This document shows, in pieces, positions 39,700 through 44,724 of a stretch of DNA of 64,000 nt. This DNA comes from a virus (Duplodnaviria; Caudoviricetes). The notes beneath the pieces were generated by a model that had not been told where the DNA came from, ran no database searches, and was given only the letters and a program-made list of their open reading frames with translations. Where the stretch lies: positions 64,001 through 128,000 of the IMG/VR virus record IMGVR_UViG_3300008740_000001, one strand, 5' to 3'. The position numbers and the translations under genes are program-made. Each line of letters opens with the position of its first letter. Within the stretch, counting starts at the first letter, position 1.

Positions 39700-41676
39700 A
39701 TGGCAGATAACGATAAAAATCCAAGAAACAATCAAGCGGATCTGTTTAAGAGACTAACGAGGCTCTTCTCAGGCCCGATTATTAATCATAGAAGCCAGTC
39801 TGGTCGTCGTATCCGACGCCAGCATATGGATAAATATGCTGCACAGTTTAAGTCAGCTAGCGGTCAGCAGTTTAAGAAGAGCACATATAACCCCCTTGAA
39901 CGTATTTCACACGATGCTATCGCTAACCAGCGTAGAGCAGAACGCTATGTAGATTTCGATCAGATGGAGTATATGCCAGAGTTGGCTTCTGCTTTGGATA
40001 TCTACGCTGACGAAATGACAACCTCGTCCGACTTGTCTCCGATGATTAGGATCAACTGTCCTAATGAGGAGATCAAAGCAGTCTTAAGCACGCTGTATGT
40101 AAATATTTTAAATGTCGATTCCAACCTATTCGGCTGGTGCCGCACCATGTCAAAATACGGAGATTTTTTCTTGTATCTAGATCTGGACGAAAGCTTTGGA
40201 ATTCGGACTGTGTTGCCTTTGCCCCCACAGGAGGTCGAGAGACTAGAAGGTCTAGACGCCACAAATCCAAATTATGTTCAGTACCAGTGGAATTCCGCAG
40301 GTATGACATTTGAGAATTGGCAAATTTCACACTTTAGAGTACTCGGCAACGACAAGTATGCTCCTTATGGCACATCTATCCTTGAACCAGCCCGCCGGAT
40401 CTGGCGCCAGTTGACGCTTATCGAAGATGCCATGATGGCGTATCGAGTTATTCGCTCCCCCGAACGCAGAGTTTTCTATATCGATGTTGGCCAGATCGCC
40501 CCACAAGATGTGGAGCAATATATGCAAAAGATTATTACGCAGATGAAGCGCCATCAGGTACTTGACCCCGACACAGGCCGTGTTGATCTTCGCTATAACC
40601 CAATGTCCGTTGAAGAAGACTACTACATCCCTGTCCGTGGCCAACAGTCAAACACTCGGATTGAAAATCTCCAAGGTGGCCAGCACGCCACAGCGATTGA
40701 CGACGTTAAGTACTTGAGAGACAAACTGTTCTCCGCACTAAAGATTCCGCAATCGTACTTAACGATGGGCGAAGGCGCCGAGGAAGATAAGACCACCCTC
40801 GCACAAAAGGACATTCGATTTGCGAGAACGATCCAGCGCTTACAGAGAGTCGTAATCAGCGAATTGGAAAAGATTGGGATTGTGCACTTATACACTCTCG
40901 GATTCAGAGGTGACGATCTTCTGAGCTTTAAGCTTACTTTGAACAATCCTTCACGCATTGCTGAATTGCAAGAACTTGAACACTGGCGCACGAAATTTGA
41001 AGTTGCCGGCGCAGCCACCGAGGGGTTCTTTTCAAGACGCTGGGTGGCACAACACTTATTCTCAATGTCGGAGGAAGAATTCCTACGCAACCAGCGAGAA
41101 ATTTACTATGATAGAAAATACGATGCATCTCTGCAGGCTGTTGCTGAAAGTGCCGCCGCCGAAGCAGCAGGAATGGCCGGCGGCATGCCACCTGCAGGCG
41201 GCGAAGAAGGGGCCCCGCCGCTTGATCCCGGCGCTGAAGGAGAAGAGGGCATGCCAGAGCCCGGCGCCGAGGAAATGCCACCAGATGCCGGTGGAGAGGC
41301 CGCACCCGAGCCTGAAACTGGAGATCTCCTTGCGGCTCCACCCGGATCGCGACCTTCACCCAGAATACACGATGGTCCCCATGGCGGCAAGAAATACTAT
41401 CCCGTTAAGAGTGATAAGAGGGATATGGGCGCCCGCAACAGAAGTTTTAACAGGCTAGCCACCCCAGAATTTGGCACTTATAGAACCACTAATTTAGGCG
41501 CCCCAGAGCTTCGATCTTTATCAAAGGGAATTTTTGCTGAAGAAGGGTCTAATTATAGTGATAGCGAAATAATACAAGAGAAGCGCCTGTTTGAGATAAA
41601 CAATGAGATTAGAACATTGATCGAAAATCTAGAAAAGAATTCGGAGTTGACACAAAATGAAGATGAAACACAATAA
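39700..41676 (+). CDS. Portal protein (T4 gp20-like)
   Basis: KYGDFF, YGTSILEPARRIWRQL.L.EDAM..YR..R.PERRVFYIDVG, EEDYYIPVRG, DDVKYL..KLF.ALKIP; acidic Pro/Gly-rich tail. Confidence 0.95.
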   Translation: MADNDKNPRNNQADLFKRLTRLFSGPIINHRSQSGRRIRRQHMDKYAAQFKSASGQQFKKSTYNPLERISHDAIANQRRAERYVDFDQMEYMPELASALDIYADEMTTSSDLSPMIRINCPNEEIKAVLSTLYVNILNVDSNLFGWCRTMSKYGDFFLYLDLDESFGIRTVLPLPPQEVERLEGLDATNPNYVQYQWNSAGMTFENWQISHFRVLGNDKYAPYGTSILEPARRIWRQLTLIEDAMMAYRVIRSPERRVFYIDVGQIAPQDVEQYMQKIITQMKRHQVLDPDTGRVDLRYNPMSVEEDYYIPVRGQQSNTRIENLQGGQHATAIDDVKYLRDKLFSALKIPQSYLTMGEGAEEDKTTLAQKDIRFARTIQRLQRVVISELEKIGIVHLYTLGFRGDDLLSFKLTLNNPSRIAELQELEHWRTKFEVAGAATEGFFSRRWVAQHLFSMSEEEFLRNQREIYYDRKYDASLQAVAESAAAEAAGMAGGMPPAGGEEGAPPLDPGAEGEEGMPEPGAEEMPPDAGGEAAPEPETGDLLAAPPGSRPSPRIHDGPHGGKKYYPVKSDKRDMGARNRSFNRLATPEFGTYRTTNLGAPELRSLSKGIFAEEGSNYSDSEIIQEKRLFEINNEIRTLIENLEKNSELTQNEDETQ

Positions 41677-43029: not shown

Positions 43030-43365
43030 TTGAGTATATTAGTGAATTTATTATGGTTTATCCTGTGTTCTTATGGGTTGACCCAGATACTTGTATACGG
43101 TTCTCTCTTTAACAGAATAAGACCCCGTAAGGAATGGCTTAAAGGCGCCGGCGAATTATTCCATTGTCCAATGTGCATGGGATTTTGGGTTGGTGCTTTT
43201 TTGTTTTGTATTTCTTCGCACACCGAACTATTTACATTTGAGCAGAATTTAGTAAACTTATTTATTTGTGGCTGGGTCTCTTCTGGCACATCATATATAA
43301 TGAATGTTTTGTTTTGCGACAACGGAATTCAACTAGGAGTTAACAATGGCAAAGACATGGACTAA
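43030..43365 (+). CDS. Small multi-TM membrane protein with CxxC (DUF1360-like)
   Basis: LFHCPMCMGFWVGAFL motif; three hydrophobic segments; start uncertain (TTG 43030 or GTG 43042). Confidence 0.6.
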   Translation: MSILVNLLWFILCSYGLTQILVYGSLFNRIRPRKEWLKGAGELFHCPMCMGFWVGAFLFCISSHTELFTFEQNLVNLFICGWVSSGTSYIMNVLFCDNGIQLGVNNGKDMD

Positions 43366-43411
43366 AAAGTGGCTACTTCAACCTGTTCGACGCTGCTGCA
43401 AGGGCTCTTAG
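43346..43411 (+). CDS. 21-aa micro-ORF MAKTWTKKWLLQPVRRCCKGS (not in ORF track), in frame with prohead protease
   Basis: SD AGGAG 43335-39, ATG 43346, TAG 43409-11; 99 nt (33 codons) upstream of protease ATG with no other stop in between. Confidence 0.6.
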   Translation: MAKTWTKKWLLQPVRRCCKGS

Positions 43412-43415
43412 CTCA

Positions 43416-43432
43416 CGCGGGTGGCGCCCGCG
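43416..43432 (+). promoter_or_regulatory. GC-rich RNA hairpin 4 nt after the micro-ORF UAG
   Basis: CGCGGG-TGGCG-CCCGCG: six G-C pairs, no U-tract. Confidence 0.6.
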
Positions 43433-43444
43433 AAGGTATTAATT

Positions 43445-44044
43445 ATGAAGAAAGTGCTTTTACGAGAATATTATGAACTATGCGAAGGTGGCGTTTGCCA
43501 AGATCTCTTAACTGAAGAGGAAAAGAGGTATGTGGCAAACGGAGGCATGATTTTGTCTGGCGTTATGCAGAGATCTGACGCCCAAAATGGAAATGGCAGA
43601 ATTTATCCTCACAAGACCCTCCAGCGAGAAGTCGAAAATTACAATAAGCTTGTGCGAGAGTCCCGAGCCTTGGGTGAATTAGACCACCCTGAAGATTCCG
43701 TCATCAATCTTAAGAACGCTTCACACTTAGTCACTGACATCTGGTGGGACAATAAGGATGTGATGGGCAAAGTAAAAGTATTGAACACTCCGGCCGGTAA
43801 GGTTCTGCAAGAACTGGTTAACAGCGGAGTAAAGCTTGGGATATCCTCCAGAGGCCTAGGTTCAGTTTCCGAGTCCACCGGCGGCACAATTGTTGAAGAT
43901 GATTTTCAGTTGATTTGTTTTGATTTCGTCTCTGAGCCCTCAACCACAGGTGCTTTCATGGTGAAGGAGAACAAAGAGCCAAATATTTTCACCAAGGCCG
44001 ATAAGATAAATCGAATTTTAAATGATATTTTGAGAGACAAATGA
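43445..44044 (+). CDS. Prohead core protease (T4 gp21-like)
   Basis: NGNGRIYP, ALGELDHP, NASHLV, GISSRGLGS, FDFVSEPST motifs; ATG 43445 preceded by AAGG. Confidence 0.92.
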   Translation: MKKVLLREYYELCEGGVCQDLLTEEEKRYVANGGMILSGVMQRSDAQNGNGRIYPHKTLQREVENYNKLVRESRALGELDHPEDSVINLKNASHLVTDIWWDNKDVMGKVKVLNTPAGKVLQELVNSGVKLGISSRGLGSVSESTGGTIVEDDFQLICFDFVSEPSTTGAFMVKENKEPNIFTKADKINRILNDILRDK

Positions 44045-44484
44045 AAAAAGAAGAATTAAAGGCAGCCCTAAAACCGCTAATCAAAGAGTGCATCAAGGAG
44101 GTGATGTTTGAAGACGATGTGTTGTCTTCCGTGATTAAGGAAGTCATTAAAGGCACGTCTTCTGCACAAGTGGTAACAGAGGTAAAGACGGAACAAAAGC
44201 CTGCACCGGCGCCCGAGAGGTTCGGTGCAGGCCGTCCCGATCCTGCAAAAGCTCTAGCAGAGAGAAAGAGTAAACTTCTTGGAGCAATCGGCTCGGAAGC
44301 GTTCAATGGGATTGATATTTTTGAAGGTACCGCCCCACTGAGCAAAGGAGCAGAAAGTTCAGATGGCCCACATATCCCAAGCGTGCTGGGGGACGATCCT
44401 GCAGACTCGGGAGTCGATATCACCGGACTGTTCTCTTCTGCTGGCCATACTTGGAAAACAATATCTAGTGGGATGAAGAAGTAA
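44041..44484 (+). CDS. Hypothetical protein (147 aa)
   Basis: ATGA overlap with protease; N-terminus MKKEELKAALKPLIKECIKEV. Confidence 0.6.
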   Translation: MKKEELKAALKPLIKECIKEVMFEDDVLSSVIKEVIKGTSSAQVVTEVKTEQKPAPAPERFGAGRPDPAKALAERKSKLLGAIGSEAFNGIDIFEGTAPLSKGAESSDGPHIPSVLGDDPADSGVDITGLFSSAGHTWKTISSGMKK

Positions 44485-44724
44485 ATGGCAGCAGTAAACG
44501 TATCGGTAAGGGCCCGTGGTAGAGAACCGGCCGAAAAATTAATTCGACGGTTTATTAGAAAGTGTAAGAAAGAGAAAATTGTTGAGAGATATCGAGAGCG
44601 ACACGATCACTACGTCAAGCCCTCGGAAAAGAGAAGAATAAAGAGGAGAAAAGCGAAACGTCTTCGTGAATTAGACGAGCTTAAACGCTCAAAAATCAGG
44701 AAGCGTTCTAAATACAATAGGTAA
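44485..44724 (+). CDS. rpsU: Ribosomal protein bS21 (phage-encoded)
   Basis: V.VR...EPAEKLIRRF.RKCKKE.I....RER..YVKPSEKRR.KRRKA: bS21 signature; basic 79 aa. Confidence 0.85.
   Translation: MAAVNVSVRARGREPAEKLIRRFIRKCKKEKIVERYRERHDHYVKPSEKRRIKRRKAKRLRELDELKRSKIRKRSKYNR

What the first reader, a model, noticed from the sequence alone, without database searches (positions are those of the whole stretch)
43335..43447. Hidden 21-codon Cys-Cys ORF, single UAG and GC hairpin in frame with the prohead protease: candidate readthrough or leader-peptide switch on head maturation
Seen: SD AGGAG (43335-39), then ATG 43346 encoding MAKTWTKKWLLQPVRRCCKGS, UAG 43409-11, a 4-nt spacer, the hairpin CGCGGG-UGGCG-CCCGCG (43416-32), and the protease ATG at 43445, exactly 33 codons from 43346 with no other stop. 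The hairpin has no U-tract, so it is not a terminator. The micro-ORF has a better SD than the protease (AAGG). At least ten other genes here end in TAG, so global recoding is unlikely. Established: stop codons followed closely by a stem-loop are a known architecture for readthrough or recoding (viral readthrough signals, SECIS-like elements), and leader peptides with tandem Cys or Trp codons drive ribosome-stalling control. Inference: either (a) partial UAG readthrough yields an N-extended protease (…CCKGS-X-LTRVAPAKVLI-MKKVLLRE…), (b) the peptide is a Cys/Trp-sensing or coupling leader that sets protease dose, or (c) it is a free metal/thiol-binding peptide. I cannot tell whether this has been described.
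Basis: partly seen in the sequence, partly recalled or inferred. Interest (0 to 1): 0.78.

Follow-up and report, generated by a model that had tools for sequence, protein, structure and literature searches.

The report
Conserved phage micro-gene with pause hairpin
The 21-codon frame before the head protease of this marine T4-like phage is a real, strongly conserved tiny gene that ends at a slow-to-decode codon just before a conserved RNA hairpin; it is not a signal for reading through the stop into the protease.

Summary
Comparison with about 200 related phage contigs changes the reading.

**The micro-ORF is a genuine gene.**
- It has its own ATG and Shine-Dalgarno site.
- Its 13-residue core, W-x-L-Q-P-V-R-x-C-x-x-G-x, is nearly invariant.
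- Variation is almost all synonymous, so selection acts on the peptide.

**UAG readthrough into the protease is not conserved.**
- The stop varies (TAG, TGA, TAA).
- The frame relative to the next gene is random.
- Other genes are often inserted between the micro-ORF and the protease.

**The end of the core is conserved in an unusual way.**
- The next codon is a stop in a weak context (C at +4 in 88%, TAA avoided), or a sense codon, most often ATA or AGA.
- A distant GC-rich group carries TTA at this position.
- In half of the versions a covarying RNA hairpin starts exactly 5 nt later, next to the following gene's ribosome-binding site.

**Best reading (about 45%).** It is a cis-acting pause or arrest leader that gates the downstream gene.

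**Main rival (about 30%).** It is a free two-cysteine micro-protein that works with the CPxC membrane protein encoded upstream.

No family model or paper in the libraries searched matches the peptide.

The parts
43030..43365 (+). Upstream 111-aa membrane-protein gene (DUF1360-like, invariant CPxC). Its last 20 nt overlap the micro-ORF.
   Evidence: ORF list. Pfam DUF1360 E=2.4e-4, 21.5 bits against a cut-off of 21. 1641 homologues, many with a precomputed PF07098 assignment. CPxC is invariant in alignment A3. The AF2 model has three long helices.
43335..43339 (+). Shine-Dalgarno site AGGAG of the micro-ORF, 6 nt before its ATG.
   Evidence: An SD-like motif precedes the ATG in 154 of 162 unique relatives.
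43346..43411 (+). Micro-ORF of 21 codons plus TAG.
   Evidence: Present in 79 of the 80 loci found by protease homology (one as a diverged form; the 80th is truncated) and in 120 or more further contigs.
43367..43408 (+). Conserved core K-W-L-L-Q-P-V-R-R-C-C-K-G-S.
   Evidence: Codon-position entropy 8.0/9.4/23.4. Synonymous fraction 0.65 against 0.08 and 0.12 in the other frames. All six Leu and all six Arg codons are used. Exactly two Cys in 138 of 138 unique peptides.
43409..43412 (+). Stop codon TAG followed by C (the +4 base): the slow-decoding position.
   Evidence: Codons at this position: TAG 65, TGA 39, TAA 27, ATA 16, AGA 5, other sense codons 13, and one version cut at a contig end. 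C at +4 in 115 of 131 stops against 7% in control genes; TAA 21% against 60%.
43416..43432 (+). RNA hairpin CGCGGGU-GGC-GCCCGCG, starting 5 nt after the stop.
   Evidence: Found at the same offset in 83 of 162 unique versions. Five core pairs have no unpaired cell and four pairs show compensatory changes. The U.G closing pair is kept in 80 of 82. Unique in the 204-kb genome.
43433..43436 (+). AAGG ribosome-binding site of the protease, directly next to the 3' arm of the hairpin.
   Evidence: An SD-like motif lies within 16 nt after the stem in 54 of 83 hairpin versions.
43445..44044 (+). Prohead (head maturation) protease gene, starting at ATG 43445.
   Evidence: Pfam Peptidase_S77 8.9e-30 and PHROG 207 3.1e-53. 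The start M-x-K-[VK]-L-L-R-E is shared by nearly all of the 80 relatives.

Best explanation
The micro-ORF is an independently translated, strongly conserved leader-type gene. Its nascent peptide and its last decoding step are built to hold the ribosome at the end of the core.

**Shown:**
- The peptide core is under strong purifying selection.
- The codon after the core is a stop in a poor termination context, or a sense codon that is mostly ATA or AGA (TTA in a GC-rich group).
- In half of the versions a covarying, sense-strand RNA hairpin begins exactly 5 nt later. It is followed at once by the next gene's ribosome-binding site or by a U-tract.
- In the other half the stop lies 2 nt before the next gene's ATG.

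**Inferred:**
- A ribosome sitting on that codon covers the 5' arm of the hairpin, or the next start site.
- Translation of the micro-ORF, and the time the ribosome dwells there, would then set how much of the downstream gene is made. In this window that gene is the prohead protease.
- The effect would come from keeping the hairpin open next to the ribosome-binding site, or, in relatives with a U-tract, from preventing termination.
- The conserved 13 residues would act inside the exit tunnel as a pause or arrest sequence.

It is not a signal for making an N-extended protease.
For: **1. It is a real gene.**
- An ATG in 162 of 163 unique versions and an SD-like motif in 154 of 162.
- Synonymous variation dominates only in this frame.
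- There are no indels in the 13-residue core, while the N-terminal part ranges from 2 to 17 residues.

**2. The next position is slow to decode.**
- 131 stops, with TAA under-used (21% against 60% in control ORFs of the same loci) and C at +4 in 88% against 7%.
- Of 34 sense codons, 16 are ATA and 5 are AGA. Each makes up about 1% of codons in the window's genes.
- ATA needs at least 11 changes on the protease tree, and every ATA or AGA case has the hairpin.
- The phage carries tRNA-Ile(tat), tRNA-Arg(tct) and tRNA-Leu(taa).

**3. An independent replicate exists.** In GC-rich soil contigs the same core is followed by TTA in 12 of 14 unique versions. TTA is 0.13% of codons there.

**4. The hairpin is under selection.**
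- Fixed 5-nt offset; 0 of 410 core cells unpaired; compensatory changes in 4 pairs.
- The G.U pairs place the structure on the sense strand.
- 54 of 83 are followed by an SD-like motif and 26 of 83 by a U-rich tail.

**5. The module is portable.** The same core stands 5' of the protease, of tag-bearing head-protein genes, of HNH endonuclease and DUF397 genes, of nnrS in one bacterial MAG, and of a tRNA-Ser gene inside phage tRNA arrays.

**6. The kind is known.** Leader peptides that block termination at their own stop codon, with interplay of readthrough and rare codons, are described for PepNL, TnaC and SpeFL (PMC11890864, read).
Against: - There is no expression, ribosome-profiling or toeprint data, and no RNA run holds this phage.
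- Half of the versions have no hairpin.
- The strict two-cysteine rule, with the second Cys moving from position +1 to +4 at least seven times, looks like thiol chemistry of a finished peptide rather than a tunnel contact.
- Two contigs fuse the peptide in frame to the DUF1360-like protein.
- Whether ATA and AGA are really slow in the unknown hosts is inferred only from phage codon usage and the phage's own tRNAs.
- The sequences are related, so the counts overstate the number of independent events.
- In this window the hairpin has no U-tract, and the fold energy of the region is not unusual.
Confidence: 0.45

Rival explanations
1. The micro-ORF encodes a free, functional micro-protein of 16-22 aa. 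It works as a small subunit or cytoplasmic tail of the DUF1360-like membrane protein encoded just upstream. Its two cysteines could join that protein's invariant CPxC in a shared metal site or a thiol exchange. On this reading the hairpin is only an optional RNA stability or termination element.
For: - Strong peptide-level selection.
- Exactly two Cys in all 138 unique peptides, as C-C-x-G-x or C-x-x-G-C, with at least 7 switches on the tree.
- The DUF1360-like gene lies within about 1.2 kb upstream in every marine contig that extends far enough upstream.
- CPxC is invariant in that family.
- Two contigs carry in-frame DUF1360-like::peptide fusions under the standard code.
- C-terminal extensions of 5-35 residues are tolerated.
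Against: - The same core occurs without any DUF1360-like neighbour in a Bacteriovoracaceae MAG, a Saccharibacteria MAG and GC-rich phage-like contigs. The last group has only one Cys.
- This reading does not explain the weak-stop or rare-codon rule, or the fixed hairpin offset.
- Other genes are inserted between the two supposed partners in 9 of 120 loci.
- The AF2 model gives no confident placement of the tail, with pLDDT below 50.
Confidence: 0.3
2. The micro-ORF encodes a free peptide that acts on a universally conserved host component, such as the ribosome, RNA polymerase or a membrane machine. On this reading it is a small host-takeover factor carried by unrelated phages.
For: - The core is invariant across phages whose proteases are only 50% identical.
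- It recurs in GC-rich phage-like contigs and in two bacterial MAGs in unrelated gene contexts.
- No known family matches it.
Against: - It lies inside the late head module rather than among early genes.
- This reading does not explain the pause-codon rule or the hairpin spacing.
- No target can be named.
Confidence: 0.1
3. Partial readthrough of UAG 43409, stimulated by the hairpin, produces a protease with a 33-residue N-terminal extension.
For: - In this window the spacer is open and in frame.
- The stop context (C at +4) is weak, and a stable stem starts 5 nt after it.
- Seven other hairpin-bearing versions also have a single stop in frame with the next gene.
Against: - The frame of the next start is 25/36/19 (0/+1/+2), so there is no in-frame excess. 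Only 8 of 80 are in frame and open.
- Stop identity changes at least 47 times on the tree.
- Most relatives have stops 0-4 codons before the protease ATG.
- The database 'fusion' proteins with Q at the stop position translate only with TAG=Q, so they are gene-caller artefacts.
- The genome has no suppressor tRNA.
- The extension follows the hairpin's nucleotides, not a conserved peptide.
Confidence: 0.03
4. The ORF is a chance open frame in an intergenic spacer, and the hairpin is an ordinary intrinsic terminator.
For: - Short ORFs and GC hairpins occur by chance.
- 26 of 83 related hairpins have U-rich tails.
Against: - The codon-level selection is overwhelming.
- The window's hairpin has no U-tract. 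The genome's clear terminators have 9-11 bp stems with T-tracts and look different.
Confidence: 0.02

Closest known systems
Termination-arrest leader peptides (TnaC of tnaCAB, SpeFL, PepNL of E. coli)
   Same: - A short upstream ORF of 14-34 codons with a conserved peptide.
- The regulatory event takes place with the stop codon in the A site.
- Stop identity, readthrough and rare codons modulate the effect (PMC11890864).
- A Trp lies 12 residues before the last residue, as in TnaC. This point is from memory and is only a lead.
   Different: - There is no sequence similarity and no match in NCBIfam or Pfam.
- The ORF sits inside an operon and overlaps the preceding gene, rather than lying at a transcript's 5' end.
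- The stop can be replaced by ATA, AGA or TTA.
- There is a strict two-cysteine rule.
- Stalling has not been demonstrated.
Monitoring substrates with C-terminal arrest sequences (SecM-secA, MifM-yidC2, VemP-secDF2)
   Same: - A conserved C-terminal peptide is followed by a hairpin next to the ribosome-binding site of the downstream gene.
- In two contigs the peptide is the C-terminal tail of a small membrane protein.
   Different: - In nearly all loci the peptide has its own start and no membrane segment, so it cannot sense a pulling force.
- The hairpin does not include the SD; it only lies next to it.
- The downstream genes are head proteins, not secretion factors.
Programmed stop-codon readthrough signals (Q-beta A1, MuLV gag-pol)
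   Same: A weak stop context and a stable RNA structure a few nucleotides downstream of the stop.
   Different: - Stop identity, reading frame and openness of the spacer are not conserved.
- No conserved extension product exists.
Amino-acid attenuator leaders (trpL, hisL, pheL)
   Same: - A short leader ORF with repeated codons for one amino acid (two Cys).
- A hairpin that has a U-tract in about a third of relatives.
   Different: - The whole core peptide is conserved at the amino-acid level.
- There is only one hairpin and no alternative antiterminator.
- The hairpin in this window has no U-tract.
Small membrane-protein partners (for example AcrZ, CydX, KdpF, MgrB)
   Same: A gene of about 20 codons next to, and translationally linked with, a membrane-protein gene, and occasionally fused to it.
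   Different: - The peptide is basic and not hydrophobic.
- The same core occurs in other genomes without that partner.

Membership tests
Programmed stop-codon readthrough element | Defined stop codon conserved among relatives | tested here: not met
   TAG 65, TGA 39, TAA 27 and sense 34 among 166 unique versions (one more is cut at a contig end). At least 47 changes on the protease tree.
Programmed stop-codon readthrough element | Downstream ORF in frame, with an open spacer, conserved among relatives | tested here: not met
   Frames 25/36/19 among 80 hairpin versions; 8 of 80 are in frame and open. In-frame stops lie 0-4 codons before the protease ATG in most loci.
Programmed stop-codon readthrough element | Stimulatory RNA structure a few nucleotides 3' of the stop | tested here: met
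   A covarying hairpin starts 5 nt after the stop position.
Ribosome arrest / termination-stalling leader peptide | Short ORF whose C-terminal 10-20 residues are conserved as a peptide | tested here: met
   13-residue core with W, L, P, V, C and G invariant. Synonymous fraction 0.65 against 0.08-0.12 in the other frames. The N-terminal part varies.
Ribosome arrest / termination-stalling leader peptide | Stall at one defined codon | tested here: inconclusive
   Indirect evidence only. The position after the core is a weak-context stop or a sense codon, mostly ATA or AGA, and TTA in the GC-rich group. No toeprint or Ribo-seq data exist.
Ribosome arrest / termination-stalling leader peptide | Downstream RNA element or start site within reach of the stalled ribosome | tested here: met
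   Either the hairpin 5 nt after the stop and next to the SD, or the next ATG 2 nt after the stop in 59 of 78 hairpin-less versions.
Ribosome arrest / termination-stalling leader peptide | Peptide-dependent stalling shown experimentally | not testable with these tools
   No RNA runs hold the phage. No cultured relative carries the ORF.
Amino-acid attenuator leader (trpL type) | Alternative terminator and antiterminator hairpins with a U-tract | tested here: not met
   A single hairpin. No U-tract in the window; 26 of 83 relatives have a U-rich tail.
Intrinsic terminator | GC-rich stem followed by a U-tract | tested here: not met
   The window tail is GAAGGTATTAATT. It is not reported by the terminator scan. 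The genome's clear terminators differ from it.
DUF1360 (PF07098), upstream gene | Match to the Pfam model above the gathering score | tested here: met
   21.5 bits against a cut-off of 21, which is marginal. Many homologues carry the precomputed PF07098 assignment.
Peptidase_S77 (T4 gp21-type prohead protease), downstream gene | Match to the Pfam and PHROG models | tested here: met
   104 bits against a cut-off of 27; PHROG 207 at 3.1e-53.

The most novel reading that the evidence does not exclude
The core W-x-L-Q-P-V-R-x-C-x-x-G-x, followed by a stop or a rare codon, would be a portable ribosome-pausing cassette that works across bacterial phyla. Unrelated phages would place it in front of head genes, homing endonuclease genes and even tRNA genes. 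Dwell time at the hungry codon would depend on release-factor activity, cysteinyl-tRNA supply, or the arrival of phage-encoded tRNAs for ATA, AGA and TTA. That dwell time would act as a timer or translation-capacity sensor gating late genes.
Probability: 0.25. Interest if true: 0.85.

Novelty: new member of a known kind. Interest (0 to 1): 0.62.

Why it matters
Gene callers miss this ORF, yet it is among the most conserved coding elements of a large clade of uncultured marine T4-like phages. Its core is more conserved than the protease beside it. It recurs in GC-rich soil phage-like contigs.

If it is a pause or arrest leader, it would be a phage-borne family of nascent-peptide regulators acting on capsid maturation genes. 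It makes a clear, testable prediction: a stop or rare codon, then a hairpin 5 nt downstream.

If instead it is a free two-cysteine micro-protein, it would give the first functional handle on the widespread DUF1360-like phage membrane proteins.

In either case the attractive idea of a readthrough-extended protease can be set aside.

Tried and rejected
**Searches that found nothing**
- Rfam on the region: no match.
- Cultured-phage collection, by DNA and by peptide: no match.
- The nearest cultured relatives, Flavobacterium phage immuto and Microcystis phage Mel-JY01, lack both the DUF1360-like gene and the micro-ORF.
- Pfam, NCBIfam and the ESM Atlas for the peptide: nothing.
- Full-text search for the peptide motif: no paper.
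- RNA sequencing runs: none hold the phage, so expression and transcript ends could not be examined.
- A GC-rich codon version of the motif in viral contigs: no hit.
- The order of the Bacteriovoracaceae MAG: no second copy in 115 further genomes.

**Ideas rejected or left open**
- Frameshift joining of the DUF1360-like ORF to the peptide. Rejected: the overlap ranges from -119 to +80 nt, and an ATG with an SD is nearly universal.
- Apparent natural protease or head-protein fusions with Q at the stop. Rejected as TAG=Q gene-calling artefacts.
- AF2 of a natural DUF1360-like::peptide fusion, to see whether the four cysteines meet. Uninformative: the tail has pLDDT below 50.
- A pairing of an arginine-rich peptide with a boxB-like hairpin. 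Considered and left aside: half of the loci lack the hairpin, and it occurs only once in the genome.
Full report
**Setting**

The window is the structural module of a complete 203,859-bp virus record with direct terminal repeats; the window is bases 64001-128000 of it. The region holds, in order:
- a T4-type portal gene (39700-41676);
- two unassigned genes;
- a 111-aa DUF1360-like membrane-protein gene (43030-43365);
- the micro-ORF;
- a gp21-type prohead protease gene (43445-44044, Peptidase_S77);
- a 147-aa gene;
- a phage ribosomal protein S21 gene.

The DNA occurs in marine metagenomes. The nearest cultured phages share only 48-56% protease identity.

**Check of the observation**

The AGGAG is therefore inside a coding region, and the true intergenic gap is 79 nt. 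Within this single sequence the ORF and the hairpin are not clearly beyond chance.

**The micro-ORF is a real gene**

- Eighty loci were collected by protease homology alone, at 71-82% identity. Of these, 78 carry the same short ORF, L056 carries a diverged form (M-R-R-I-N-I-P-D-V-R-R-C-C-K-G-S), and the last locus (L044) is truncated upstream.
Protease identity in these falls to 50%. Wherever the contig extended far enough, the DUF1360-like gene lay upstream and the protease downstream.
- Across 69 unique nucleotide versions of the core, column entropy by codon position is 8.0, 9.4 and 23.4. In the micro-ORF frame 65% of differing codon pairs are synonymous, against 8% and 12% in the other two frames. 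All six Leu codons, all six Arg codons and both Ser codon families are used.
- W, L, P, V, C and G are invariant, and there is no indel in the 13-residue core. The N-terminal part ranges from 2 to 17 residues.
- An in-frame ATG is present in 162 of 163 unique versions, and an SD-like motif in 154 of 162. The overlap with the upstream gene ranges from -119 to +80 nt, which rules out a fixed frameshift site.

**Readthrough into the protease is not the conserved function**

- The codon after the core is TAG in 65 unique versions, TGA in 39, TAA in 27 and a sense codon in 34. This needs at least 47 changes on a protease tree.
- In 80 hairpin-bearing versions the next gene's start is in frame in 25, +1 in 36 and +2 in 19. 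Only 8 are in frame with an open spacer.
- Most relatives have an in-frame stop 0-4 codons before the conserved protease start.
- In about a quarter of the loci another gene lies between the micro-ORF and the protease. It begins with a tag-like sequence, M-K-I-T-x-x-x-L-K-x-I-I-x-E-E. In 9 of 120 loci a gene is inserted on the other side, between the DUF1360-like gene and the micro-ORF.
- Database proteins that look like micro-ORF::protease or micro-ORF::head-protein fusions carry Q at the stop position. They translate only with TAG=Q on short contigs, so they are gene-caller artefacts.
- The genome has seven tRNAs and none is a suppressor.

**The hairpin is a selected RNA structure**

- It occurs in 83 of 162 unique versions, always starting 5 nt after the stop position.
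- In the ungapped alignment A1, five core pairs have no unpaired cell (0 of 410). Four pairs show changes on both sides, such as G-C to A-U or to C-G.
- The loop-closing U.G pair is kept in 80 of 82, while the triloop varies freely. All five measures exceed every one of 500 shuffles and every slid control except one: for pairs with a change on both sides, the +3 slide equals the observed five.
- The G.U pairs place the structure on the sense strand, that is, in the mRNA.
- The hairpin has been gained or lost at least 19 times on the protease tree.
- It is followed within 16 nt by an SD-like motif in 54 of 83 versions, and by a U-rich tail in 26 of 83.
- In the window it has no U-tract, and it directly precedes the protease's AAGG.
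- It is unique in the genome. The genome's clear terminators have 9-11 bp stems with T-tracts.
- No Rfam family matches.

**A rule at the end of the core**

Compared with 1058 control ORFs in the same loci:
- the micro-ORF avoids TAA (21% against 60%);
- it has C as the base after the stop in 115 of 131 cases, against 7% in controls.

From memory, C at +4 is the weakest termination context in E. coli; I did not test this.

When the position holds a sense codon:
- it is ATA in 16 and AGA in 5 of 34 cases, although each is about 1% of codons in the window's genes;
- ATA needs at least 11 changes on the tree;
- every ATA or AGA case has the hairpin, and the ORF then runs through the stem and stops soon after it;
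- the phage carries its own tRNAs for ATA, AGA and TTA.

**A second, distant group repeats the rule**

A metagenome scan found the same core in GC-rich (58-70% GC) contigs: M-x-[RK]-W-M-L-Q-P-V-R-H-C-x-x-G-E. The next codon is TTA in 12 of 14 unique versions, TGA in one and AAA in one. TTA is 0.13% of codons on those contigs.

In this group the micro-ORF stands:
- in front of, or in frame with, HNH endonuclease genes (my reading of the ORF sequences, not scanned against Pfam) and DUF397 genes (Pfam);
- in the 79-nt spacer between two tRNA-Ser genes of phage tRNA arrays.

Two bacterial MAGs also carry a copy:
- In a Bacteriovoracaceae MAG it lies between what I read as nosY (not scanned against Pfam) and nnrS (Pfam NnrS), with ATA after the core.
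- In a Saccharibacteria MAG it follows a sortase gene and runs into a 14-bp terminator stem.

The first of these copies is absent from 115 other genomes of that order.

**Interpretation**

Five observations fit a cis-acting leader:
- a peptide core that stays invariant across very different phages;
- a variable N-terminus;
- a slow A-site codon at a fixed distance from the core;
- an RNA stem at the point where the mRNA enters a ribosome sitting on that codon (my knowledge of ribosome footprints, not tested here);
- a varying downstream gene.

Translation of such a leader, and ribosome dwell at its end, would control the element that follows. Termination-arrest leaders of similar size are known, and in them stop identity, readthrough and rare codons matter (PMC11890864). 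I hold this reading at about 45%.

The main rival, at about 30%, is a free micro-protein acting with the DUF1360-like membrane protein. Its support:
- all 138 unique peptides have exactly two cysteines, as C-C-x-G-x or C-x-x-G-C, with at least seven switches;
- the membrane protein has an invariant CPxC at the start of its second helix;
- two contigs fuse the peptide in frame to that protein under the standard code.

This rival does not explain the pause-codon rule, the hairpin offset, or the copies in other contexts. The two readings are not mutually exclusive.

**Novelty**

No Pfam or NCBIfam model, no Atlas cluster and no paper in the library matches the peptide. Gene callers list it only when it happens to be extended. 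I class it as a new member of a known kind: a conserved leader or micro-protein ORF with an RNA stem.

No note covers the peptide on other DNA.

Noticed in passing
L230-L252 (metagenome contigs), e.g. L249:355-513, L241, L252:1581-2306, L233:867-1124: A GC-rich group carries the same micro-ORF core (M-x-[RK]-WMLQPVRHC-x-x-G-E), followed by the very rare TTA codon. It stands upstream of, or in frame with, HNH endonuclease and DUF397 genes, and in the spacer between two tRNA-Ser genes of phage tRNA arrays.
   Followed up: partly
L220:1483-1566 (Bacteriovoracaceae MAG) and L210:437-544 (Saccharibacteria MAG): Isolated bacterial-MAG copies of the micro-ORF. One lies between nosY-like and nnrS genes, with ATA after the core. 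The other follows a sortase gene and runs into a 14-bp stem with a T-tract. The first is absent from 115 other genomes of its order.
   Followed up: partly
G000:C1:19518-19938 (outside the window): ARAGORN calls a phage-encoded tmRNA (tag ANNNYYFEESRLAA) next to a cluster of tRNA genes. The genome also carries tRNAs for ATA, AGA, TTA and AAA.
   Followed up: no
window 44485-44724: Phage-encoded ribosomal protein S21 gene, two genes downstream of the protease (Pfam Ribosomal_S21, 1.4e-9). It is conserved at this position in related contigs and in Microcystis phage Mel-JY01.
   Followed up: partly
L014, L025, L026, L008, L013 and others, directly after the micro-ORF; window 44041-44484: Genes inserted between the micro-ORF and the protease start with M-K-I-T-x-x-x-L-K-x-I-I-x-E-E. 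This resembles capsid-targeting tags cleaved by the prohead protease. The window's 147-aa gene after the protease starts MKKEELKAALKPLIKE.
   Followed up: no
P0132 (L223), P0161 (L222): On short metagenome contigs, public gene calls used TAG=Q. This created artificial fusions of the micro-ORF with the downstream gene. Database proteins of this clade with Q at that position should not be read as natural fusions.
   Followed up: yes
L204-L218 (GTDB MAG contigs): Ten contigs of this phage clade are binned into marine MAGs of inconsistent taxonomy (Flavobacteriaceae, Legionellales, Acidiferrobacteraceae, archaeal bins). They give no usable host assignment.
   Followed up: partly
window 43421: The ORF list offers GTG 43421 as a longer protease start. 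It lies inside the hairpin loop, and no relative supports it. In relatives the conserved start is the ATG equivalent to 43445.
   Followed up: yes
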